A stretch of 64,000 bases of DNA. It comes from a virus. How positions within the stretch are numbered: position 1 is the stretch's first letter; each line of letters opens with the position of its first letter. The notes under the pieces are model-generated. The model did not search any database. It was not told where the DNA came from and worked only from the letters and a program-made list of their open reading frames with translations. Below are positions 24,695-35,301 of the stretch, piece by piece. The position numbers and the translations under genes are program-made. Location: the IMG/VR virus record IMGVR_UViG_3300025009_000094, positions 2,527 to 66,526 of that record, one strand, 5' to 3'.

Positions 24695-25144
24695 ATGACG
24701 TTTTGTTTAAGGAAATTTATTGGGCATACTACTACTGTAATAATTGATAAGGAGGTGATTAAAATAAACATCGGGGAAAAGGTTAGGTATTTACGAGAGA
24801 TACGCGGATACTCACTGACCAAGCTTTCTGAGTTAAGCGATGTCTCGCTTCCTTATTTAAGCGAAATTGAGAACCACAAGAAGACTCCCTCGAATAAAGC
24901 GTTAACAAAAATAGCCAAAACCCTCAATGCCAACACGTGGTTCTTTATGGATGACAATGCGTTAAGCTTTGAGGAGATGATAAAGCTATCAGATTATGAA
25001 CCGCCGGAGGATATTGTTGAATTCTTCGCTACGCGCGAAAGTCTACCTTACGCTATACTTGCCCGCGAATTTCATGATGAAAAAATAGACCCAATTTTCC
25101 TCCGCGAACTCCTAGAGTCAATCAAGAAAATGAAATCTAAATAG
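24695..25144 (+). CDS. cI-like XRE repressor (start possibly ATA at 24764)
   Basis: IGEKVRYLREIRGYSLTKLSELSDVSLPYLSEIEN; divergent from cro; GGAGGTG RBS at 24751. Confidence 0.85.
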   Translation: MTFCLRKFIGHTTTVIIDKEVIKINIGEKVRYLREIRGYSLTKLSELSDVSLPYLSEIENHKKTPSNKALTKIAKTLNANTWFFMDDNALSFEEMIKLSDYEPPEDIVEFFATRESLPYAILAREFHDEKIDPIFLRELLESIKKMKSK

Positions 25145-25723: not shown

Positions 25724-26140
25724 TTGGGGTTTTTTATTGTGCAAAAAGATATTCCTAAAATGTCATCCGAGTACAAGTCTGATTTACTCATACATGACGG
25801 GCACCTGGTCGTCATTCAGGAGAGGCTAGTTAAGGTTCTAGGACTCGATAAAGCCGTGTTCGTACAAAAGCTACACTATTGGCTCAACACTGAATCGGGG
25901 GTCGTTATAGACCGCAGGAGATGGGTGTATAACACCTATGAACAATGGCGCAAACAATCTCCCTGGTGGTCAGCCATGACAATAAGGAGAATGGTTAAGG
26001 ACCTTGAGGGGTTAGGGGTAGTTGTTAGCGTTGAATTAAACGGAGATAAGGGAGATCATACCAAGTGGTACACCATTGATTATGGCAAGTTAAACAAGTT
26101 ATGGGAAGACTATTTAGAGAAGAATAGTGAGCATTTATAG
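25724..26140 (+). CDS. short wHTH replication initiator (Rep)
   Basis: AVFVQKLHYWL...RWVYNTYEQW...WWSAMTIRR...TKWYTIDY; immediately followed by origin. Confidence 0.75.
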   Translation: MGFFIVQKDIPKMSSEYKSDLLIHDGHLVVIQERLVKVLGLDKAVFVQKLHYWLNTESGVVIDRRRWVYNTYEQWRKQSPWWSAMTIRRMVKDLEGLGVVVSVELNGDKGDHTKWYTIDYGKLNKLWEDYLEKNSEHL

Positions 26141-26152
26141 GGGTTGCAGGAC

Positions 26153-26309
26153 TTATCCACAGGTGATAGTGGTCGTCTGATCAAAATGAACAGACGGTGC
26201 CTGATCAAAATGAACAGACGCGTCTGATCAAAATGAACAGATCTACTAATACATAAATAACTACGCATAAATAACTTATACATATTATCTTAACAATGAG
26301 TTATCCACA
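26153..26309. other. plasmid-type replication origin
   Basis: TTATCCACA at 26153-26161 and 26301-26309; CTGATCAAAATGAACAGA x3 at 26177, 26201, 26224; AT-rich CATAAATAACT x2. Confidence 0.85.
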
Positions 26310-26325
26310 GGGGAGATGAAATATT

Positions 26326-26871
26326 ATGTATTTAACGCTAAAGCAGATAGCAGAGAGAGCTGGAATTGGAGCCAGCCTTGCCGCCTTCTACCGTGATCGA
26401 TTTGGAGAATATCTAAAAGTATCGGGTGAAGGACGGAATCGTAAGTACGATGAGTCAAATATCGAACTATTTATGCTTGTCGCTCGACATTACAAAGAAG
26501 GTTTAGACTACGACCAAATAAAGCAGAACCTTGATAATAAGTATGGATACTCCGTGCCGAATTCAACTGAATTAGCAGGGAACAGTAATACAAAAGTAGC
26601 CCAACAAGAAGATTTAGCGCATACTATCCGTCACGTCCTCCTCGAAGAACTTACTAAGCAGAATAGAATTATCCTCCAACTACAAGAGGAACTCGATGAT
26701 ATGAGGGCAGAGTTTAATGAAGGGTTTGCAGGGGTCAATAAGAAGGTCGAGGATGGACATAGGGACGTAGAGAGTAGGGACATTGAGGTATTACAACGAC
26801 TCAATGATATTAAAGTGATACAACAACAACGCAATAAGCCGCTATGGAGGAGGATATTCAACCGGACATGA
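26326..26871 (+). CDS. MerR-like HTH + coiled coil + C-terminal amphipathic helix (pSK1 Par/RacA-like segregation protein)
   Basis: LTLKQIAERAGI...GRNRKY; coiled coil; KPLWRRIF end. Confidence 0.7.
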   Translation: MYLTLKQIAERAGIGASLAAFYRDRFGEYLKVSGEGRNRKYDESNIELFMLVARHYKEGLDYDQIKQNLDNKYGYSVPNSTELAGNSNTKVAQQEDLAHTIRHVLLEELTKQNRIILQLQEELDDMRAEFNEGFAGVNKKVEDGHRDVESRDIEVLQRLNDIKVIQQQRNKPLWRRIFNRT

Positions 26872-26985
26872 TATGTCTGGTTTCTTTTTTGCATAAATTT
26901 AACAGGAATAACGGACAAATAGTAAGGAGTATTGATAATCATTAAACGTTTATTGAGACGTTGAAGGGATGGTGTTAAACGTTGA

Positions 26986-28347
26986 ATGAAGAAAGATAAC
27001 AATTTTGCAAAGGAAATAAAGGAAAGCGTTATGCGAGCCATTTATCGTGGTCCATCGGAAGAGATCCCTTCGTTGGTGTGGGATTGTATAGAAATTCTCT
27101 ATCAGAAAGCCCCCATGAAACCCTTCATATTCAAGCGCACCCTACTTTCCCCAAAAGAAAAACAAGGCATGAATCCGAGTCTTCCCAATAAACTCAATCC
27201 TCAAGAAATAGTCCGTTGGGTAATACACAAGCCGAAACTAAAGCAAACATGGTTGTTGGTTGTTTATCTGCCACCAGGATGTAGTTATGAGGAATTTATC
27301 AGCAAGAAACATTACTTTTCTAGTGCCGTAGGAGGTTCTTGTCAGATAGAACGCAATGGCGAAGCGATTTATATGACCATCTCAAATATTCACCTATCCA
27401 GTAAGTACACCTATGAATTTGATCCGCGACCATACTTAAAAAAGATGGCGATCCCCATCTATCTTGGAAAAACGGCCAATGGGATCATCGTTGAAGACTT
27501 TACCAAGATAGTATCCCTGTTCGTTGCAGGATTAAGGGATACGGGCAAAACAGTCACATTCCATCAAGCTATCTATACTTGCCTAAACATCGATCGGATC
27601 ATGAAAGGAAACTACATCCAAGTCGCTATAATTGACCCAAAACTTAAAGAGCTTCAATACTTCGAGGATTATGGAGCGGTATGGACGCATGAACCGGAGG
27701 AGTCCATTCAATTGCTCAAATTAATCCAAGAAGCAAATAAGCAACGAAAGAACATCATCGGAACCAAGGCTAATAATATCATTGAGTACAATTCGGTAGC
27801 CAATGACCCCATACCCTATATTATGCTGTTTGTGGATGAGGTTGACATGGTTGGTTCGGACAATGATTGCGCCAAAATACTCATAGAATCTGTGCAGAAA
27901 TATCGTTCGCAGGGGATATATTTAATCGCATCGACACAAAGGCCGGATGCCACATCTTTTGGTAAAGGAAACTCATTTTCAAAGTTCAAGTCTCAATTTG
28001 AAGCAAGAATGTGTTACCGGATGACCGATGAGCTTAATAGTCGTATGGTTATCGAAACCGGAAGCGCAGCGCATTTGCCAAAGATACCAGGCAGGGCAAT
28101 TTATAAATACGACAGGGAGGTTGAAATCCAAGCACCTTATTTTCCTAGTAGAATCAAGGATGAAGAGCAATTCCACCAACTAATGTCCCAACTCCCACAA
28201 ATACCCCTACCATATCACGACATAGAAGGAGAGGTATATAATCATGAACCAAACTACCCACGTCCAAGGCAGAGTACGCGATCAACGAGTCCTAGCGCAT
28301 CTAAGAGCTTGCAGCGTCTTGTCTCAGGAGCAAATCCATTTGCTTGA
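26986..28347 (+). CDS. FtsK/SpoIIIE-family ATPase
   Basis: GLRDTGKT Walker A, IIDPK, FVDE Walker B, STQRP, PGRAI. Confidence 0.9.
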   Translation: MKKDNNFAKEIKESVMRAIYRGPSEEIPSLVWDCIEILYQKAPMKPFIFKRTLLSPKEKQGMNPSLPNKLNPQEIVRWVIHKPKLKQTWLLVVYLPPGCSYEEFISKKHYFSSAVGGSCQIERNGEAIYMTISNIHLSSKYTYEFDPRPYLKKMAIPIYLGKTANGIIVEDFTKIVSLFVAGLRDTGKTVTFHQAIYTCLNIDRIMKGNYIQVAIIDPKLKELQYFEDYGAVWTHEPEESIQLLKLIQEANKQRKNIIGTKANNIIEYNSVANDPIPYIMLFVDEVDMVGSDNDCAKILIESVQKYRSQGIYLIASTQRPDATSFGKGNSFSKFKSQFEARMCYRMTDELNSRMVIETGSAAHLPKIPGRAIYKYDREVEIQAPYFPSRIKDEEQFHQLMSQLPQIPLPYHDIEGEVYNHEPNYPRPRQSTRSTSPSASKSLQRLVSGANPFA

Positions 28348-28945
28348 ATTTTGGAATGTCAGCCGAGAAATGTCTCATCGCTGTACAAAAAGATTGGAAA
28401 GGGATAAGCTGATCCGCAGAATCAGGATATCGTGGAGCGATATGCCTGACTGGTTCTATCTTTATGACGAGAAAAGGCCGGACCAAATTCAGCACAGACT
28501 AGGAAAGTCTTGGATTTATGTCGCCTGGCACATGAAAGTATTAGACTCTTATGGTATCCAATCTCTCAACTATTTCAAGTCAGAGAATAGGAAGTTTTAT
28601 GAGCAAGACAAATCATTTCCCATCCCGGACTGCTATGGAGTTATTAATCACAAGGTATATGGTGACATCTTTAGTTTTGGGGAGTTCCAGGTAAATGAAT
28701 CTAGTAACTCATGGAATAAGAACTATCGAGCATTATTTGATACTCTCGCGTCAGACCAATACCTCTCCTTAATTGTAGTCACAACCGGATCATATGACGC
28801 GATTAAAGAGCAGGTATACAAGGAATTTTCAGGCACCAAGAATGTCAGGCTAGAATTTTACACCATCGATAAATTAAGGGATTTATGTTGGAGAATCGTA
28901 CTCATCAAAAGGGAGGAAGTAAGAAGAAAGGAGTTGACGGAATGA
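28244..28945 (+). CDS. replication-relaxation (Replic_Relax-like) protein
   Basis: RDQRVL...LSQEQI wHTH, QHRL, IPD...GEFQ PD-(D/E)xK-like; typical position after FtsK. Confidence 0.7.
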   Translation: MNQTTHVQGRVRDQRVLAHLRACSVLSQEQIHLLEFWNVSREMSHRCTKRLERDKLIRRIRISWSDMPDWFYLYDEKRPDQIQHRLGKSWIYVAWHMKVLDSYGIQSLNYFKSENRKFYEQDKSFPIPDCYGVINHKVYGDIFSFGEFQVNESSNSWNKNYRALFDTLASDQYLSLIVVTTGSYDAIKEQVYKEFSGTKNVRLEFYTIDKLRDLCWRIVLIKREEVRRKELTE

Positions 28946-29163
28946 ATCCTGCTGAAATAGCCCTCAAAAACATGCACCTAGTTTTGAAGATCGCAGCCGC
29001 ATTATTTGTGTTCGGAATCGGGCTGGATATCTTTGGCTATAGTCGCTTTAAAATATACGTCAACATATTTGCTATAGCAGCACTCGCAGTAATGGTTATA
29101 AGTGCTTTGTCTGGATTCATGGGAGCCGCCGAATCGGTAAGCAATGGAACATGGCCCAAATGA
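28942..29163 (+). CDS. two-TM small membrane protein, SpoIIIAC/AD-like
   Basis: ATGA-coupled; LKIAAALFVFGIGLDIFGYSRFKIYVNIFAIAALAVMVI resembles SpoIIIAC pattern by eye. Confidence 0.5.
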   Translation: MNPAEIALKNMHLVLKIAAALFVFGIGLDIFGYSRFKIYVNIFAIAALAVMVISALSGFMGAAESVSNGTWPK

Positions 29164-29813
29164 TTGCCGACTTAATTAGACTATCAGCCCTTTACGTTTT
29201 AGTCAGAGTATTTGTTGAAATAGCTATGCCAAACTCAAGGCTAATTGTTAAGTATCTTTTCTGGTCAGGTGTAGCACTTACAATAGTTACCGCCATAGGC
29301 CCACAAATTAAACAAGTGACCACAGACTTGCATGAGGTAGCGATTACCTACACTAGAGGAAGGGAGTCCTTAGATGGTGTACTAGGAGTTGATCAAGGGC
29401 AGAAGATGGGAGTCGGATACCAAGGACCATGGGAAAGAATGACAGGCAGCGCAAAGTTTGATTGGCCCCTAAAAGGTAAGGTTACACAGGAATTCAAAGG
29501 CGAGGATCACCACGGTATAGACATTGCCGGAAGAGTTGGGGATAAAATCAAAACTAGTAGACCAGGCAAGGTTAAAAAGATTATTCAAGATGATCCCATT
29601 TACGGCCTATATGTTATCGTTGACCACGGCAACGGATACGAAACGATTTATGCTCATTGCTCAAAGATTGTGGTTACGGAGGGGGAAACGGTGTTTAGTA
29701 GTGATAAGATTGCAGAAGTAGGCAACACGGGAACTAATTCCACAGGACCACATTTACACTTAGAGCTTAGAGTTAATGGGAAAGCAATTAATCCTGCTGA
29801 ATATTTTAAATAG
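29151..29813 (+). CDS. membrane-anchored M23/LytM peptidase with SpoIIIAF-like two-TM N-terminus
   Basis: HHGID and GPHLH zinc motifs, YAH, INP; N-term VFVEIAMPNS..KYL. Confidence 0.85.
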   Translation: MAQMIADLIRLSALYVLVRVFVEIAMPNSRLIVKYLFWSGVALTIVTAIGPQIKQVTTDLHEVAITYTRGRESLDGVLGVDQGQKMGVGYQGPWERMTGSAKFDWPLKGKVTQEFKGEDHHGIDIAGRVGDKIKTSRPGKVKKIIQDDPIYGLYVIVDHGNGYETIYAHCSKIVVTEGETVFSSDKIAEVGNTGTNSTGPHLHLELRVNGKAINPAEYFK

Positions 29814-29829
29814 GGAGGGATGTTATGCT

Positions 29830-30000
29830 ATGAAATACATGACATTATTTAAGCCAAAAGAGTATTTACCTATTGATATAAGCATGTCTGAATTAATTTA
29901 TTTCATCGAAAAGCAAACTGGAATAAGCCCCATTATTATAGCTACTGTTCTGGATGCAGAGGATATTTACTTAAGAGAGAAGGGTGTGATTATAGATTGA
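29830..30000 (+). CDS. small conserved phage protein
   Basis: GGGAGGG RBS; ELIYFIEKQTGIS..IIATVLDAE..YL. Confidence 0.55.
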   Translation: MKYMTLFKPKEYLPIDISMSELIYFIEKQTGISPIIIATVLDAEDIYLREKGVIID

Positions 30001-30227
30001 ATAAGCCAACTGCTGTTTCGATTAATTATTCTAAATTCACTAGCATTATCAGCGATGCTGTACCGGGACGCGAAGTTGACTATCTGCTATATGAAATTAA
30101 TAATAGAATTGGATTCATTAGGCTCAATCAAATTGATAACCGGTATGTTCAGCGAATGATTAACGACATTGAGGCCATCATTGAGACTCTTGAGTTTTTT
30201 CTAAAAAGGAGTGAATTGGATGACTAA
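29997..30227 (+). CDS. hypothetical protein
   Basis: TTGA-coupled 76-aa ORF. Confidence 0.45.
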   Translation: MNKPTAVSINYSKFTSIISDAVPGREVDYLLYEINNRIGFIRLNQIDNRYVQRMINDIEAIIETLEFFLKRSELDD

Positions 30228-30888
30228 AAGCATTATCATCCTCTGTAAATCCTCAATCCGCAGAACTCTCGTCTTATCCCTTATAATGATCTTGGTCGGC
30301 TTATCCCTTATAAACCCCTTCAAAGCTCAAGCAACAACCCCACAGGCCTACCTCAAGCCATCTGCGTTCATCTTCTACCTGTATCCACACATCAACGGAA
30401 TGTTTTGGCTAGAATCAAGTCCAAAGTCGGGCTATGCGACATTAGAAGAATGGAGTAGTGTGCTACCGGATGGCGAAATGATCGTTGCGGCTAAACCGGA
30501 TATACAATTGGCAAGCCTTGGAGGACTGGACAGGATTGGTAAGTATGTTCAAGGAAAACTAATGGGAAGGTCATACAACGGAAGATACGATAAGGATATT
30601 TTCAAGTATCGTCGGACGGTAACGGCAGAAGGGGTTACAGATGAGGTTGAGGTTGAAATTGGAAAGCATTTTAAGGATAATGATAATCTTGAGAAGTTGA
30701 TTGGCAATGTCAGGAAGCATCTAACGACTGACGCAGGGGAGACTAAGGACATAAAGGATATTGTGGTTGCGCCTGAACCGACTAAGGATACAAAGGAAAG
30801 CCAGGCTGCCAAAATACAAATACTTGGAGGAGCTTCGTTATTAACAGGTCTATATATGTTCGGGAAGATCCTGATCCTCTGTCTTTAA
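30211..30888 (+). CDS. exported/membrane protein (signal peptide and C-terminal TM)
   Basis: hydrophobic N-terminus ending AQA; C-terminal hydrophobic helix. Confidence 0.6.
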   Translation: MNWMTKSIIILCKSSIRRTLVLSLIMILVGLSLINPFKAQATTPQAYLKPSAFIFYLYPHINGMFWLESSPKSGYATLEEWSSVLPDGEMIVAAKPDIQLASLGGLDRIGKYVQGKLMGRSYNGRYDKDIFKYRRTVTAEGVTDEVEVEIGKHFKDNDNLEKLIGNVRKHLTTDAGETKDIKDIVVAPEPTKDTKESQAAKIQILGGASLLTGLYMFGKILILCL

Positions 30889-30891
30889 AAT

Positions 30892-30924
30892 AAAACCTCC
30901 GTCATTAATTTGATGGAGGTTTTT
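30892..30924. terminator. intrinsic terminator
   Basis: AAAACCTCCGTCA-TTAATT-TGATGGAGGTTTTT. Confidence 0.8.
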
Positions 30925-30982: not shown

Positions 30983-31240
30983 ATGAGGAAATTAATCTTA
31001 GTTTTAGTTCTCGTAGCGTTGGCATATACAAACCCACCTAAGGGTAACTATATCGAATATACAAAGCATAGGATAACCGGGCACACTACGTCCGGCCTGG
31101 TTTCATTCTTTGCCGATCCGCTAATTGATAGGACAACGACTGAGCATAATTTATTGTTCGCTACTATTTATCGGACTAAGTTTGGGGATGGCGAAGTTAC
31201 TACGTTAGGCATAATGAATCAGTTTATTCCCCTAAAATAG
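30983..31240 (+). CDS. DUF4359-like small exported protein
   Basis: signal peptide then TNP...Y...NLLFATIY...TLGIMNQF. Confidence 0.6.
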   Translation: MRKLILVLVLVALAYTNPPKGNYIEYTKHRITGHTTSGLVSFFADPLIDRTTTEHNLLFATIYRTKFGDGEVTTLGIMNQFIPLK

Positions 31241-31242
31241 AG

Positions 31243-31272
31243 AATACCATCCGAATTGGATGGTATTTGTTT
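31243..31272. terminator. bidirectional terminator
   Basis: AATACCATCC-GAATT-GGATGGTATT. Confidence 0.75.
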
Positions 31273-33348: not shown

Positions 33349-33702
33349 CTAAACTAAAATAACCCTGACAAGTAAACCCCTCTTCTTGGCGTTCTCGATC
33401 ATGTCATTCGTGCCACGACTTTTACCGTCCCAAAACGCAACCAAAGCATCTGTATTATCAGCCATTTGTTCATTTCTCAACGGTCCTGCGCGTTTACCAA
33501 ACTTATCCCAGTCGGCAGGAAATCTATTAATAGGGTAGTTATTTTCGAGTCCATACCTTTCGCCTAATAAATCCGCACCATTACAAGTTCCGGAAACAAT
33601 TTCGATGTCGTTTTTATTGGCTAGTAGGGAGTCGAGTTTATTTTTAAGCAATTCGTAGTTATTGAAGTCTCTTGAACCTGCGATTATGATTCGGAATGGC
33701 AT
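33349..33702 (-). CDS. DUF2493/YspA-like SLOG protein (start likely 33702)
   Basis: IIIAGSRDF, VSGTCNGAD, AGPLRNEQM, AFWDGKSRGT. Confidence 0.85.
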   Translation of the reverse strand: MPFRIIIAGSRDFNNYELLKNKLDSLLANKNDIEIVSGTCNGADLLGERYGLENNYPINRFPADWDKFGKRAGPLRNEQMADNTDALVAFWDGKSRGTNDMIENAKKRGLLVRVILV

Positions 33703-34085
33703 TTTTTGTATCCTTCTTTCACAAACATAGTTCAATGGTGGATTTGGAAACGGCTTTACTCCCCCCTGAAAATCGATAGCTCGACTTTCAAGAGAGAAAA
33801 ATACAGTTCGACGGAGCCATTTGGTATCCGTATTTATCTCAAGCTTATTCAATATATTCACTTGCATCCTATTCAGCGCTTGCAATTCCGATAACAGCGC
33901 GCGATAATCAATCGACTCTAGGAACCCCCCATGACGGTAAATGCAAAAAATACAATGTGCCTCTAACGCGTGTCCCCCCATGATTAGTGGTGGCAGTTTT
34001 TTAACGTGTGTTACTTTAACCACGGGACAAAACACAAAGCGACAAACCTTTTGACGGCCTGTCGCTGAAATTCCTTAAATTACCC

Positions 34086-34599: not shown

Positions 34600-35301
34600 C
34601 TACGGAAGCATAAGTTTGGAACACGCATACCCCATTTTGATAATCTGTGCTTGCACTTCAGCCGATTTTGAGTCTAAAACTCTCACCAAGAGATAACCGT
34701 CTTTGTCTGGCTTAACTTCTGCCACCGTAACCCCTCCATCCCTATACTGCATACCAAAATAATCACAAATTCCCTTCGCATGAGCAACCGCTATTCCTTG
34801 TCTAAACCCTGGGCTACTCAACTTCACCGCATCGCTAACGGTATCAATGAATCCATTCTCTGTCAAAATAGCCGGGGCGATAGTATTCTTCAATACATAA
34901 TCATTGGCTGTCTTAACGCCACGGTTCGTCCAACCACAAGATGCAATCAGACGAGCCAGAACAGCCTTTGCAGCCTTCTCAGCCCTTCCACCTTCCGATA
35001 CTATCCAAACCTCTGAACCTGTTCCATGACCAGCGTTGCAATGGATACTGACGAATAAATAAGCCTTGGCATCATTGGATATATCACAACGAGCTTGGAG
35101 GGAACCTGCTACATCAGGGTAATCACCGGGAACCCTATCGCCTGTTCGTGTCATGACTACTTGGATGCCGTTTGATTCTAGGAGGGGTTTTAGGCGTATG
35201 GCAATATCGAGGGTTATGTCTTGCTCGAAAAGACCACATCCTAGGGCACCGGAGTCAATTGTGTTTTTATTATGACCTGCGTCAACGCAGCATATTGGCA
35301 T
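34600..35301 (-). CDS. N-acetylmuramoyl-L-alanine amidase endolysin (Amidase_3)
   Basis: VDAGH, E, FVSIHCNA, PAILTENGFID. Confidence 0.92.
   Translation of the reverse strand: MPICCVDAGHNKNTIDSGALGCGLFEQDITLDIAIRLKPLLESNGIQVVMTRTGDRVPGDYPDVAGSLQARCDISNDAKAYLFVSIHCNAGHGTGSEVWIVSEGGRAEKAAKAVLARLIASCGWTNRGVKTANDYVLKNTIAPAILTENGFIDTVSDAVKLSSPGFRQGIAVAHAKGICDYFGMQYRDGGVTVAEVKPDKDGYLLVRVLDSKSAEVQAQIIKMGYACSKLMLP

What the first reader, a model, noticed from the sequence alone, without database searches (positions are those of the whole stretch)
26986..30888. Candidate sporulation-coupled DNA transfer module: FtsK/SpoIIIE + relaxase-like + SpoIIIAC-like + SpoIIIAF-like/M23
Seen: an overlapping or ATGA-coupled operon of an FtsK ATPase, a Replic_Relax-like nuclease, a 73-aa two-TM protein, a two-TM M23 peptidase with intact HxxxD/HxH, two small ORFs and an exported protein. 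It lies directly behind a plasmid replicon in the lysogeny region. By eye the two-TM segments resemble SpoIIIAC (KIA...LD..G......V......MV) and SpoIIIAF (E..MP.S...KY). Known: SpoIIIA-SpoIIQ (a LytM/M23 fold) bridges mother cell and forespore, and SpoIIIE pumps DNA across the septum. FtsK + Replic_Relax pairs occur in Bacillota phages with unclear function. Inference: a minimal apparatus that moves the extrachromosomal prophage into the forespore, or between cells. No VirB4-like ATPase is visible.
Basis: partly seen in the sequence, partly recalled or inferred. Interest (0 to 1): 0.85.

Follow-up and report, generated by a model that had tools for sequence, protein, structure and literature searches.

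The report
Phage DNA-pump operon with wall-cutting enzyme
A temperate phage that probably persists as a plasmid carries a tightly coupled gene set for a DNA pump, a DNA-cutting protein, small membrane proteins and a cell-wall-cutting enzyme; it is an enlarged form of a phage "DNA translocation operon" described in 2012, its job is still untested, and its supposed likeness to the spore-feeding channel does not hold up.

Summary
The operon is real: one transcription unit (26986-30888) encoding a soluble FtsK/TcpA-like ATPase, a wHTH + PD-(D/E)xK nuclease, a 73-aa two-TM protein, a two-TM-anchored intact M23 peptidase, two non-conserved small ORFs and an exported, C-terminally anchored protein. 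It follows a Rep/iteron/DnaA-box unit in a 66.5-kb phage record with no detectable tyrosine or serine recombinase.

The nuclease misses Pfam Replic_Relax directly, but 55 of 64 members of its HMMER-extended family match it.

The SpoIIIA reading fails. The 73-aa protein shows no similarity to SpoIIIAC/AD. The M23 N-terminus shares only a marginal 28-residue helix match with SpoIIIAF (hhalign P 0.016; 2 of 200 shuffles) and lacks its soluble domain.

The core order recurs in 12 close relatives and one distant phage. One close relative has an integrase fragment upstream.

The closest print precedent is the "DNA translocation operon" of Bacillus phages (Pathria 2012). This scan has already met the cassette on other DNA several times.

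Most likely it is a VirB4-less, conjugation-like DNA-processing and translocation module with envelope parts. Function is untested. I rate it a new variant of a known kind, of moderate interest.

The parts
25724..26140 (+). Context: 138-aa Rep-like initiator (N-terminal DnaD-like/replication-initiator domain only)
   Evidence: phrog_6493 E 7.4e-30 and phrog_428 E 4.6e-16. No Pfam family. Not found in any of 10 related viral loci.
26152..26308 (.). Context: iteron-like repeats (3 copies of about 21 nt at 26174-26241) flanked by two TTATCCACA boxes
   Evidence: the repeat finder families D1 and D10.
26326..26871 (+). Context: MerR-type HTH / coiled-coil protein (181 aa), followed by a terminator-like hairpin at 26860-26882
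   Evidence: PF13411 E 1.5e-5. Terminator-like site. Homologue in 4 of 10 related viral loci.
26939..26989 (+). Cluster of AACGTT-core repeats (three + strand copies of AAACGTTGA with at most 1 mismatch, at 26944, 26956 and 26977) directly before the FtsK start. Candidate operator or cis site (oriT/clt-like) of the cassette.
   Evidence: (I6, D11). Two adjacent copies at the same place in 8 of 12 aligned upstream regions, including L007, which lacks the MerR gene. The role is inferred.
26986..28347 (+). Soluble FtsK/TcpA-like P-loop DNA translocase (453 aa)
   Evidence: phrog_1358 E 2.7e-41. PF01580 21.1 bits, below the cut-off of 24. Best solved relative 6o1w 'DNA translocase coupling protein' E 5.4e-10 over residues 149-387, against FtsK 2iuu at 1.9e-7. 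Walker A at 182, Walker B-like at 280, no hydrophobic stretch.
28244..28945 (+). Divergent Replic_Relax (MOBC-type) protein: N-terminal wHTH plus PD-(D/E)xK nuclease fold (233 aa). Its first 104 nt overlap the FtsK gene out of frame.
   Evidence: No direct PF13814 match. Family profile finds 78 proteins at E<=1e-3, and 55 of 64 aligned members match PF13814. AF2 model pLDDT 75; top VIA matches are all PD-(D/E)xK nucleases, best N.BspD6I Z 8.4, rmsd 3.6, 143 aligned. D129 and E147 invariant; H84, K159 and Y161 nearly invariant. N-terminal 50 residues conserved in homologues.
28942..29163 (+). 73-aa two-TM protein, translationally coupled on both sides
   Evidence: Two hydrophobic stretches. An ORF of 73-74 aa at the same place in all 12 relatives, in two sequence variants, with invariant F59 M60 A63 S67 G69 W71 near the C-terminus. 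No family above threshold.
29151..29813 (+). Two-TM-anchored M23 metallopeptidase (220 aa; alternative start 29160 gives 217 aa)
   Evidence: PF01551 E 4.9e-28, 97.6 bits. H120, H121, D124, H169, H201 and H203 invariant in 12 of 12. Hydrophobic stretches 4-26 and 31-50. The 217-aa form is the database representative P0037.
29830..30000 (+). Small ORF (56 aa), variable slot
   Evidence: No family. No homologue in 10 related viral loci, where this slot holds 0-3 other small genes.
29997..30227 (+). Small ORF (76 aa), variable slot
   Evidence: Same as the 56-aa ORF.
30220..30888 (+). Exported protein (222 aa from ATG 30220): N-terminal signal or TM segment, about 150-aa ectodomain, P/T/E-rich linker, C-terminal TM anchor
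   Evidence: Hydrophobic stretches 12-36 and 201-222. AGGAG lies 9 nt before ATG 30220. Homologue in 10 of 10 related viral loci plus L015 and L016. No family. ESM Atlas gave nothing. AF2 model unusable at pLDDT 48.
30892..30923 (+). Terminator-like hairpin ending the operon
   Evidence: 13-pair stem followed by a T-rich tail.
30983..31240 (+). Separate small gene: DUF4359-like 85-aa protein with a hydrophobic N-terminus, its own RBS, and a bidirectional terminator at 31242-31268
   Evidence: PF14271 E 2.2e-10, 41.5 bits against a cut-off of 27. Present in 9 of 10 related viral loci. Terminator.

Best explanation
The operon is an enlarged, lysogeny-side version of the phage 'DNA translocation operon' known from Bacillus and Geobacillus phages.

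Proposed mechanism:
- A sequence-specific wHTH + PD-(D/E)xK protein of the Replic_Relax/MOBC kind binds and nicks or cuts the phage-plasmid DNA. The candidate site is the conserved AACGTT-repeat cluster just upstream.
- A soluble hexameric FtsK/TcpA-like ATPase pumps that DNA.
- Co-translated envelope proteins prepare the passage through membrane and wall. These are the 73-aa two-TM protein, the membrane-tethered active M23 endopeptidase and the surface-anchored 222-aa protein.
- The purpose is to move or mobilise the episomal prophage DNA across a cell boundary without virions, to a neighbouring cell or across a septum. This may happen alone or with a helper's channel.

Shown: gene content, coupling, conservation, folds and motifs.
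Inferred: nicking, pumping, the cis site, expression in lysogeny, and any transfer.
For: - It is one unit between terminator-like sites at 26860-26882 and 30892-30923, with overlapping or ATGA-coupled genes.
- It is co-oriented with the CI-like repressor and the Rep/iteron unit, and opposed to both lytic arms.
- The ATPase is closer to a solved 'DNA translocase coupling protein' (6o1w, E 5.4e-10) than to FtsK (1.9e-7).
- The nuclease belongs by transitive homology to PF13814 (55 of 64). That family is PD-(D/E)xK + HTH (PMC3424549, passages) and is CONJscan's MobC relaxase family (PMC5357655, passages).
- Its predicted fold agrees.
- The membrane-anchored M23 has all catalytic residues.
- The order FtsK-RR-2TM-(2TM)M23 recurs in all 12 close relatives that cover it. 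It also recurs in a distant 65.7-kb phage (L042) whose nuclease matches PF13814 directly.
- FtsK-RR plus small TM proteins also stand in L043, behind an actin-like partition gene, and in phage Bolokhovo.
- Pathria et al. 2012 (PMC3357382, abstract and passages) described a relaxase (MobC-related) + coupling ATPase + membrane-anchor operon in 0305phi8-36, SPO1, GBSV1 and Gamma-like phages.
Against: - No VirB4-like (AAA_10) or TcpC match in the record, and no polytopic channel protein was seen. No known conjugation channel is therefore encoded.
- The ATPase has no membrane segment. By the positive-inside rule both hairpins would leave only 4-9 residue cytoplasmic loops, so how the motor docks is unexplained.
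- The FtsK/Replic_Relax pair also occurs in integrating and in lytic Bacillus phages.
- In phage Fah the ATPase is a delayed-early lytic gene (PMC4113786, passages).
- Deleting the 0305phi8-36 operon gave no laboratory phenotype (PMC3357382).
- The envelope genes could be unrelated lysogenic-conversion genes that merely share a transcript.
- No RNA data and no host are at hand.
Confidence: 0.4

Rival explanations
1. Plasmid-prophage maintenance. The FtsK-like motor and the site-specific nuclease act inside the cell on the episome, in segregation, dimer or catenane resolution, or replication start. The M23, the TM proteins and the exported protein are separate lysogenic-conversion or superinfection-exclusion genes sharing the transcript.
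For: - The operon directly follows a Rep/iteron/DnaA-box unit.
- In L043 the same pair directly follows an actin-like (PF17989) partition gene.
- In pMU3262 a ParM/StbA gene lies about 4 kb away.
- Authors of Bacillus phage genome papers place the pair with plasmid replication or segregation genes (PMC9658697 and PMC11526630, passages).
- Replic_Relax is annotated for plasmid replication and relaxation (PMC3424549, table passage).
Against: - The pair also stands in phages with integrases (BtCS33, A16R4, L007) and in lytic phages.
- Translational coupling of the nuclease to the 73-aa protein and then to the M23 is kept in all 12 relatives, and the order also holds in distant L042. That is not expected for unrelated passenger genes.
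Confidence: 0.25
2. One reading: a sporulation-coupled apparatus built from SpoIIIA-like parts (SpoIIIAC-like 73-aa protein, SpoIIIAF-like anchor on a SpoIIQ-like M23) that, with the SpoIIIE-like motor, loads the episomal prophage into the forespore.
For: - M23 residues 3-31 align to residues 5-33 of a SpoIIIAF: BLASTP 23.5 bits, E 0.002 for the single pair. hhalign against 20 SpoIIIAF gave score 19.4, P 0.016, and 2 of 200 column shuffles reach it.
- A Bacillota MAG that holds a related 67.7-kb phage contig has a spoIIIA operon, and 25 of the 26 genomes searched (that MAG and its relatives) have SpoIIIAF.
- In Thermoanaerobacterium plasmid pMU3262 a true SpoIIIAC-family gene (PF06686 49.8 bits) lies two genes upstream of an FtsK/Replic_Relax pair and a Spo0E-like gene follows it.
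- Reviews have speculated that phage FtsK/SpoIIIE relates to sporulation (PMC4113786, passages).
Against: - The 73-aa family shows nothing against SpoIIIAC or SpoIIIAD: Pfam no match; BLASTP none; hhalign probability 0.9% and 0.1%.
- PF06686 matched 1 of 18 related records, and none of the window's relatives.
- The SpoIIIAF signal is one transmembrane helix at hhalign probability 2.9%, picked after the fact.
- The Pfam model gives no match at E<=0.1, and the soluble domain that defines SpoIIIAF is absent.
- The SpoIIQ model scores 60.5 bits against a cut-off of 250, below generic wall hydrolases.
- Binning of a phage contig into a MAG is weak host evidence.
Confidence: 0.1
3. Prophage-encoded defence or superinfection exclusion: an FtsK/HerA-type ATPase with a PD-(D/E)xK nuclease attacks incoming DNA, and the surface and membrane proteins block injection.
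For: - Its position in the lysogeny block is typical of such genes.
- ATPase + PD-(D/E)xK pairs are common in defence systems (general knowledge, recalled).
- The ATPase has weak PADLOC hits to SspH (E 3.5e-13) and mad8 (3e-9).
Against: - The PADLOC hits cover only the P-loop domain. The nuclease and the other eight proteins scanned match no defence model below E 0.001; only weak rows appear (mad1 E 0.0015, Csx15 E 0.038).
- The nuclease belongs to a family tied to plasmid and phage DNA processing.
- The same pair is carried by lytic phages.
Confidence: 0.1
4. Auxiliary lysis or wall-remodelling pair: the 73-aa protein acts as a holin-like partner of the membrane-tethered M23, unrelated to the DNA proteins.
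For: - There is a weak Pfam hit to Phage_holin_Dp1 (E 0.012, 16.4 bits against a cut-off of 25).
- M23 domains occur in phage endolysins and tail proteins.
Against: - The phage already has an amidase endolysin at 34600-35301 (phrog_435 E 3.5e-50), with a small membrane ORF beside it, in the late arm.
- The pair is translationally coupled to the nuclease and lies on the opposite strand from the late genes.
Confidence: 0.05

Closest known systems
Phage 'DNA translocation operon' (0305phi8-36 orf200-207; partial versions in SPO1, GBSV1, Bacillus virus 1, Gamma/Cherry/Fah/Wbeta), Pathria et al. 2012, PMC3357382 (abstract and passages read)
   Same: A MobC-related relaxase-like protein with an N-terminal HTH, an FtsK-type coupling ATPase and membrane proteins in one phage operon. 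Function unknown. Non-essential for plaque growth.
   Different: - Here the nuclease is too diverged for the Pfam model.
- The membrane parts are two 2-TM hairpins, one fused to an active M23 peptidase, plus an anchored exported protein. No VirB6-like or MreB-like gene was seen.
- It sits in the lysogeny block of a phage with a plasmid-type replicon.
FtsK/SpoIIIE + Replic_Relax gene pair of temperate Bacillus/Geobacillus phages (BtCS33, vB_BanS-A16R4, vB_GthS_PK5.1) and Bacillus megaplasmids
   Same: Same gene order. The ATPase is 24-28% identical over about 65-75% of its length. The partners are true PF13814. A long out-of-frame overlap is also seen in PK5.1 (95 nt).
   Different: Those loci show no coupled 2-TM/M23/exported set. 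They lie between the lysis cassette and an integrase.
Mobilisation modules of Firmicutes elements: TcpA (FtsK-like) coupling protein plus non-canonical relaxase in IMEs/ICEs, and MOBC relaxases with their own coupling protein (PMC5357655 passages; CloDF13 MobB/MobC and pAD1 TraX recalled)
   Same: A coupling-type ATPase gene directly upstream of a relaxase-type gene, forming a compact module without a mating channel. PF13814 equals CONJscan MobC.
   Different: - In the streptococcal IMEs studied, TcpA was never found with PF13814, which paired with VirD4 (PMC5357655).
- TcpA-type proteins of conjugative elements are membrane-anchored (recalled), and this ATPase is not.
- Here a wall hydrolase and membrane proteins are part of the unit.
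Streptomyces TraB/clt/Spd double-stranded DNA transfer (recalled; NCBIfam plasmid_TraB hit E 2.1e-4, 20 bits against cut-off 800)
   Same: A VirB4-less transfer concept: one FtsK-like motor, a cis site, and small membrane proteins.
   Different: TraB carries its own membrane and wall-binding parts and needs no nuclease. Sequence similarity is limited to the P-loop domain. The host phylum differs.
SpoIIIA-SpoIIQ channel and SpoIIIE of endospore formers
   Same: An FtsK-family motor, an M23-fold protein anchored in the membrane, and small 2-TM proteins.
   Different: No detectable homology to SpoIIIAC/AD. There is only a marginal single-helix likeness to SpoIIIAF, without its soluble domain. The M23 is generic and catalytically intact. 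The motor has no membrane domain.

Membership tests
FtsK/SpoIIIE ATPases (PF01580) | Pfam model above its gathering score | tested here: inconclusive
   21.1 bits against a cut-off of 24, E 2.3e-4. PHROG 1358 'FtsK/SpoIIIE-like' E 2.7e-41. PDB FtsK 2iuu E 1.9e-7.
FtsK/SpoIIIE ATPases (PF01580) | Walker A and Walker B motifs | tested here: met
   GLRDTGKT at 182 and MLFVDE at 280.
TcpA-type conjugative coupling proteins | Closest solved relative is a coupling protein | tested here: met
   6o1w 'DNA translocase coupling protein' E 5.4e-10 over residues 149-387. That this entry is pCW3 TcpA is recalled, not stated in the output.
TcpA-type conjugative coupling proteins | N-terminal membrane anchor (recalled as typical) | tested here: not met
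   No hydrophobic stretch in 453 aa.
TcpA-type conjugative coupling proteins | Partnered with a type IV secretion channel (VirB4-type ATPase, TcpC/VirB8-like) | tested here: not met
   PF12846 and PF12642: 0 matches in the 66.5-kb record. VirB6-like models were not searched.
Replic_Relax / MOBC (PF13814) | Direct match to the Pfam model | tested here: not met
   No match at E<=0.1 or at E<=10 in six frames. None of 36 close homologues carries a precomputed Pfam domain.
Replic_Relax / MOBC (PF13814) | Homology through intermediate sequences | tested here: met
   The profile of 17 family members finds 78 proteins at E<=1e-3 in 1.84 billion. 55 of the 64 aligned rows (63 hits plus the window's protein, which matches no family) match PF13814, best 9.9e-21. 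15 short or partial hits were left out of that alignment.
Replic_Relax / MOBC (PF13814) | HTH plus PD-(D/E)xK fold with conserved acidic residues | tested here: met
   - AF2 model pLDDT 75.
- VIA top rows are all PD-(D/E)xK nucleases, Z 8.4-7.3. Z under 8 can be a common arrangement, and Foldseek found none at E<=1e-3.
- D129 and E147 are invariant across 64 sequences.
- The N-terminal 48 columns align to the BtCS33 partner at probability 44%.
Replic_Relax / MOBC (PF13814) | Site-specific nicking (relaxase) activity | not testable with these tools
   Needs biochemistry.
SpoIIIAC/AD (PF06686) | Match of the 73-aa protein to the family model or to members | tested here: not met
   - No Pfam match.
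- BLASTP against a MAG SpoIIIAC gave none at E<=100, and against SpoIIIAD gave E 13.
- hhalign probability 0.9% and 0.1%.
- 0 of 12 relatives' records match.
SpoIIIAF (PF09581) | Match to the family model, including the soluble C-terminal domain | tested here: not met
   No Pfam match at E<=0.1. Residues after the two TM segments are an M23 domain.
SpoIIIAF (PF09581) | N-terminal TM hairpin similarity | tested here: inconclusive
   - BLASTP 23.5 bits, E 0.002 for the single pair.
- hhalign score 19.4, probability 2.9%, P 0.016.
- Shuffles average 12.3 (sd 2.6), and 2 of 200 reach the observed score.
- The 20 SpoIIIAF used are close kin of each other.
SpoIIQ | NCBIfam equivalog score | tested here: not met
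   NF053738 scores 60.5 bits against a cut-off of 250. Seven generic wall-hydrolase models score higher.
Peptidase_M23 (PF01551) | Model match and the zinc/catalytic residues HxxxD, H, HxH | tested here: met
   97.6 bits against a cut-off of 28.7. H120, D124, H169, H201 and H203 invariant in 12 of 12.
Phage 'DNA translocation operon' (Pathria 2012) | MobC-related relaxase-like gene + coupling ATPase + membrane proteins in one phage operon | tested here: met
   compared with passages of PMC3357382. No direct sequence comparison with 0305phi8-36 orf200/201 was made.

The most novel reading that the evidence does not exclude
The cassette is a self-sufficient, VirB4-less trans-envelope DNA translocator. 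A soluble FtsK/TcpA-like motor and a MOBC-like nuclease feed the episomal prophage through a passage made by two 2-TM hairpin proteins and opened in the wall by the tethered M23 peptidase. This lets a temperate phage spread or be inherited as naked DNA across a septum, to a sister cell in a chain or biofilm or into the forespore, without making virions. The true SpoIIIAC-family gene and Spo0E-like gene beside the same ATPase/nuclease pair on plasmid pMU3262 would then mark repeated recruitment of sporulation-channel parts by such modules.
Probability: 0.15. Interest if true: 0.85.

Novelty: new variant of a known kind. Interest (0 to 1): 0.5.

Why it matters
Phage-borne FtsK + relaxase-like operons are widespread in Bacillota. 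The ATPase alone matched 262 phage and 635 plasmid records here. They have been in print since 2012, yet no function has been shown.

This variant couples the two DNA proteins translationally to a wall hydrolase and membrane proteins. It also places them next to a plasmid replicon in the lysogeny block. That sharpens the hypothesis that they move prophage DNA across an envelope or septum.

It gives concrete handles for a test:
- a candidate cis site;
- invariant nuclease residues;
- an intact M23 active site;
- culturable carriers of the core pair, such as Geobacillus phages and Thermoanaerobacterium pMU3262.

If true, temperate phages would have a virion-independent route of spread or spore inheritance. 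If the envelope genes are only passengers, it is an ordinary accessory module.

Tried and rejected
- **DNA-level search.** The 5.6-kb region found nothing in phages or plasmids. A single-protein scan of viral contigs with the ATPase found nothing.
- **Solved structures.** A profile of the nuclease family against PDB sequences gave only chance-level rows. Foldseek gave no match at E<=1e-3.
- **Nuclease against known partners.** hhalign against the Geobacillus Replic_Relax protein was null.
- **73-aa family.** hhalign was null against Bolokhovo's annotated 'TrbC/VirB2' protein and against L042's 78-aa protein. Bolokhovo's protein itself only reaches T4SS_pilin at E 0.0072, below cut-off.
- **My own by-eye likeness.** I thought L043's 68-aa protein resembled the M23 N-terminus. 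hhalign did not support this.
- **Exported protein.** ESM Atlas gave no usable hit. The AF2 model had pLDDT 48, so no fold search was made.
- **Complex prediction** of M23 with the 73-aa protein: no verdict, score 0.00. This is no evidence either way.
- **RNA.** No RNA holder was listed for the region, so expression could not be examined.
- **SpoIIIAC-like hits in 'phages'.** Seven UNVERIFIED faecal 'Bacteriophage sp.' contigs matched. The three I fetched hold spoIIIAA next to spoIIIAC, i.e. the chromosomal operon, so they are not mobile-element examples.
- **Genome-contig scan.** Only two stand-alone phage-sized contigs in MAGs were found, so no integrated copy and no firm host.
- **Not examined.** A sporulation-type promoter upstream of the operon was not tested.
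- **Supplements.** Supplementary tables of PMC3424549 (Replic_Relax fold assignment) and PMC5357655 were not asked for and might refine the MOBC link.
- **Recalled, not read.** Francia et al. 2013 on MOBC relaxases.

Full report
**Where the window lies.** The window is bases 2527-66526 of a 66,526-base IMG/VR virus record. CheckV rates it 100% complete, and no end repeats were found.
- PHROG scans place terminase, portal, capsid, tail and an amidase endolysin on the minus strand from about 63.5 kb down to 34.6 kb.
- Anti-repressor, methyltransferase, DnaB-type helicase and a replication initiator lie on the minus strand from about 24.5 kb down.
- Between them a plus-strand block runs from a CI-like XRE repressor (24695-25144, PF01381) to 31240.
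- No tyrosine or serine recombinase is found anywhere in the record.
- The region occurs in groundwater, sediment and soil metagenomes of ten coded studies. Four holders may be the source sample.

**The observation.**
- The unit is bracketed by terminator-like hairpins at 26860-26882 and 30892-30923.
- Gene junctions are tight:
  - 104-nt out-of-frame overlap between the ATPase and nuclease genes;
  - ATGA between the nuclease gene and the 73-aa gene;
  - a 13-nt overlap, or ATGA from the alternative start 29160, into the M23 gene.
- ATPase (453 aa): PHROG 1358 at E 2.7e-41; Walker A at 182; a Walker-B-like motif at 280; no hydrophobic stretch. Pfam FtsK_SpoIIIE is just under its cut-off (21.1 against 24 bits).
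- M23 protein: clear (97.6 bits), with every catalytic residue invariant in 12 homologues. Two N-terminal hydrophobic stretches precede the domain.
- 73-aa protein: two hydrophobic stretches.
- Last protein: best read from ATG 30220. It has a signal-like N-terminus and a C-terminal anchor.
- Upstream unit: a Rep-like gene, three ~21-nt repeats and two TTATCCACA boxes are there.

**The nuclease.**
- Pfam's Replic_Relax model does not see it, even at E<=10. None of its 36 close homologues has a precomputed Pfam domain.
- A profile of 17 family members, searched with HMMER against 1.84 billion representatives, found 78 proteins at E<=1e-3.
- I aligned 63 near-full-length hits with the window's protein. 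Of these 64 rows, 55 match PF13814 on their own, best 9.9e-21. The window's protein matches none.
- D129 and E147 are invariant across that alignment. H84, K159 and Y161 are nearly so.
- An AlphaFold2 model (pLDDT 75) gives a helical N-terminal domain and an alpha/beta core. Its best VIA-align matches are all PD-(D/E)xK nucleases, from N.BspD6I (Z 8.4, rmsd 3.6, 143 residues) down to BstEII (Z 7.3). Foldseek has nothing at E<=1e-3, and Z near 8 alone is not proof.
- Steczkiewicz et al. 2012 assign Replic_Relax to the PD-(D/E)xK superfamily, usually fused to HTH domains (PMC3424549, passages).
- Coluzzi et al. 2017 equate PF13814 with CONJscan's MobC relaxase family (PMC5357655, passages).
- I therefore file the protein as a divergent Replic_Relax/MOBC-type protein. 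The direct HMM test was not met, and nicking is untested.

**The ATPase.** Among solved structures its best relative is 6o1w, a 'DNA translocase coupling protein' (E 5.4e-10, residues 149-387). FtsK itself scores 1.9e-7. tblastn finds relatives at 23-28% identity (top listed rows) in 262 phage records, 242 of them named Bacillus, and in 635 plasmid records.

**The SpoIIIA claim.**
- Material for the test:
  - a Bacillota MAG (G001) that holds a related 67.7-kb phage contig supplied a full spoIIIA operon;
  - 25 of the 26 genomes searched (G001 and its relatives) have SpoIIIAF.
- 73-aa protein:
  - no BLASTP alignment to that SpoIIIAC, and E 13 to SpoIIIAD;
  - hhalign of its 13-member family against SpoIIIAC gives probability 0.9%;
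  - PF06686 finds nothing in the record, and nothing in the 12 relatives' records.
- M23 N-terminus:
  - residues 3-31 do align with residues 5-33 of SpoIIIAF (23.5 bits, E 0.002 for that one pair);
  - profile against profile (12 phage proteins, first 75 columns, against 20 SpoIIIAF) gives score 19.4, probability 2.9%, P 0.016 over 28 columns;
  - column shuffles average 12.3 (sd 2.6), and 2 of 200 reach the observed score.
- That is one transmembrane helix, chosen after the fact, tested against closely related SpoIIIAF sequences. The soluble domain that defines SpoIIIAF is replaced by M23.
- The SpoIIQ equivalog scores 60.5 bits against a cut-off of 250, below seven generic hydrolase models.
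- I treat the SpoIIIAC likeness as not supported and the SpoIIIAF likeness as inconclusive.

**Conservation in close relatives.** Ten related viral loci (rr identity 70-90%) and two MAG contigs were compared.
- ATPase: in 9 of 10 viral loci. The tenth is cut.
- M23 and the exported protein: in 10 of 10.
- DUF4359-like gene: in 9 of 10.
- A 73-74-aa two-TM ORF: at the same place in all 12 relatives, in two sequence variants.
- The two small ORFs: in 0 of 10. That slot holds 0-3 unrelated small genes.
- The Rep gene: in 0 of 10.
- The MerR gene: in 4 of 10.
- The nuclease (70-90%) is better conserved than the ATPase (50-63%).

**Upstream context and more distant carriers.**
- In L007 the upstream neighbour is a tyrosine-integrase fragment and an XRE pair, not a replicon.
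- The complete relative G030, which has direct terminal repeats, has no integrase.
- L042 (65.7-kb contig) has ATPase, a true PF13814 protein, a 78-aa two-TM protein, a two-TM M23 and an exported protein. Its record holds tyrosine and serine recombinases.
- L043 has an actin-like partition gene, a 71-aa ORF, the ATPase, a true PF13814 protein and two small two-TM proteins, but no M23.
- Phage Bolokhovo has the pair followed by a membrane protein annotated TrbC/VirB2.
- Bacillus and Geobacillus temperate phages have the pair alone.

**A cis element.** Three plus-strand copies of an AACGTT-core 9-mer lie at 26944-26985, between a weak promoter-like site and the ATPase start. The 9-mer is not enriched genome-wide (22 found against 18.5 expected). 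Two adjacent copies do stand at the same place in 8 of 12 aligned upstream regions, including L007, which lacks the MerR gene. It may be an operator, or the site the nuclease acts on. That is inference.

**What it most likely is.** Pathria et al. 2012 (PMC3357382, abstract and passages) described a 'DNA translocation operon' in phage 0305phi8-36. It holds a MobC-related relaxase, a coupling ATPase and membrane anchors.
- They found partial versions in SPO1, GBSV1 and the Gamma group.
- Deletion gave no growth defect in the laboratory.
- They raised cell-to-cell spread of phage DNA as a possibility.

The lead to this paper came from earlier follow-up notes of this scan. I read the passages myself.

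The present operon is that kind of module. It differs by a translationally coupled envelope set and by its position in the lysogeny block beside a plasmid replicon. Co-translation of DNA-handling and envelope proteins, kept across distant phages, is the main argument for a trans-envelope DNA function.

Counter-arguments:
- There is no VirB4-like or TcpC-like gene.
- The motor has no membrane anchor.
- The pair occurs in integrating and lytic phages.
- It shows delayed-early expression in phage Fah (PMC4113786, passages).
- The one deletion in print had no phenotype.

PADLOC offers only P-loop-level hits for the ATPase.

My odds:
- conjugation-like processing/translocation module: about 0.4;
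- intracellular plasmid maintenance with passenger envelope genes: 0.25;
- the sporulation reading: 0.1;
- defence or exclusion: 0.1;
- auxiliary lysis: 0.05.

On Thermoanaerobacterium plasmid pMU3262 an FtsK/Replic_Relax pair is preceded, two genes upstream, by a true SpoIIIAC-family gene (PF06686, 49.8 bits). A Spo0E-like gene follows the pair. This is one element, filed for two strains, out of 18 records tested. Its small protein shows no likeness to the window's 73-aa family. It keeps a sporulation link alive as a minority possibility for this class of module, not for this window's proteins.

**Novelty and score.**
- The kind is in print since 2012. The pair is routinely annotated.
- This scan has already followed up the same or very similar cassettes on other DNA. 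These include e1-3428805, e1-4951324, e1-6132276, e1-6130071 and e1-6201863.
- The M23/2-TM/exported extension in a plasmid-type prophage is a variant, and the function remains open.
- I rate it a new variant of a known kind, with interest 0.5.

Noticed in passing
L045:5221-8032 (Thermoanaerobacterium saccharolyticum plasmid pMU3262, NC_017998.1): A true SpoIIIAC-family gene (PF06686, 49.8 bits) and a 120-aa ORF precede an FtsK/Replic_Relax pair, and a Spo0E-like gene (PF09388) follows. Gam and ParM/StbA genes are annotated upstream, and dUTPase and HNH genes downstream. The identical locus is in NC_019956.1.
   Followed up: partly
window 28244-28347; L004 5230-5330; L001 7016-7110: The roughly 100-nt out-of-frame overlap between the ATPase tail and the nuclease N-terminus is kept in close relatives (101 nt) and in Geobacillus phage PK5.1 (95 nt). 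The nuclease N-terminus is conserved at protein level, so both frames seem to be read.
   Followed up: partly
L043:3922-4925: An actin-like partition gene (PF17989, E 2.8e-28) and a 71-aa ORF stand directly upstream of the ATPase/nuclease pair in a 46.6-kb record classed as provirus.
   Followed up: partly
L009:5538-6659 (minus strand): A 373-aa ORF with a C-terminal cysteine-rich motif sits between the MerR-like gene and the ATPase gene in the complete relative G030. By reading it looks like a TnpB-type insertion. It was not scanned against any family.
   Followed up: no
record G028 (behind L042), contig positions 22075-26047: Four or five tyrosine-recombinase matches lie in a 4-kb cluster of one 65.7-kb phage record, plus a 546-aa serine recombinase near the cassette.
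   Followed up: no
L047, L048, L049 (MT835785.1, MT835629.1, MT835955.1): UNVERIFIED 'Bacteriophage sp.' contigs from faecal samples carry spoIIIAA next to spoIIIAC, and spoIIIAE in one. They look like chromosomal spoIIIA operon pieces rather than phage DNA.
   Followed up: partly
window 33349-34035 (minus strand): A 228-aa protein with a YspA/cpYpsA-related SLOG domain (PF10686, E 7.6e-17) lies between the cassette and the lysis genes.
   Followed up: no
window 29151-29813 (protein P0037): The identical M23 protein (from residue 4) is on record on 19 contigs, the longest of 164,428 bases. That is far longer than the phage, so it could be an integrated copy, a concatemer or a misassembly.
   Followed up: no
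L044:10566-13205 (B. cereus plasmid pRML01): A lysozyme-family gene and an SLT transglycosylase gene lie 2-5 kb downstream of an FtsK/replication-relaxation pair on a 435-kb megaplasmid. No linkage was shown.
   Followed up: no
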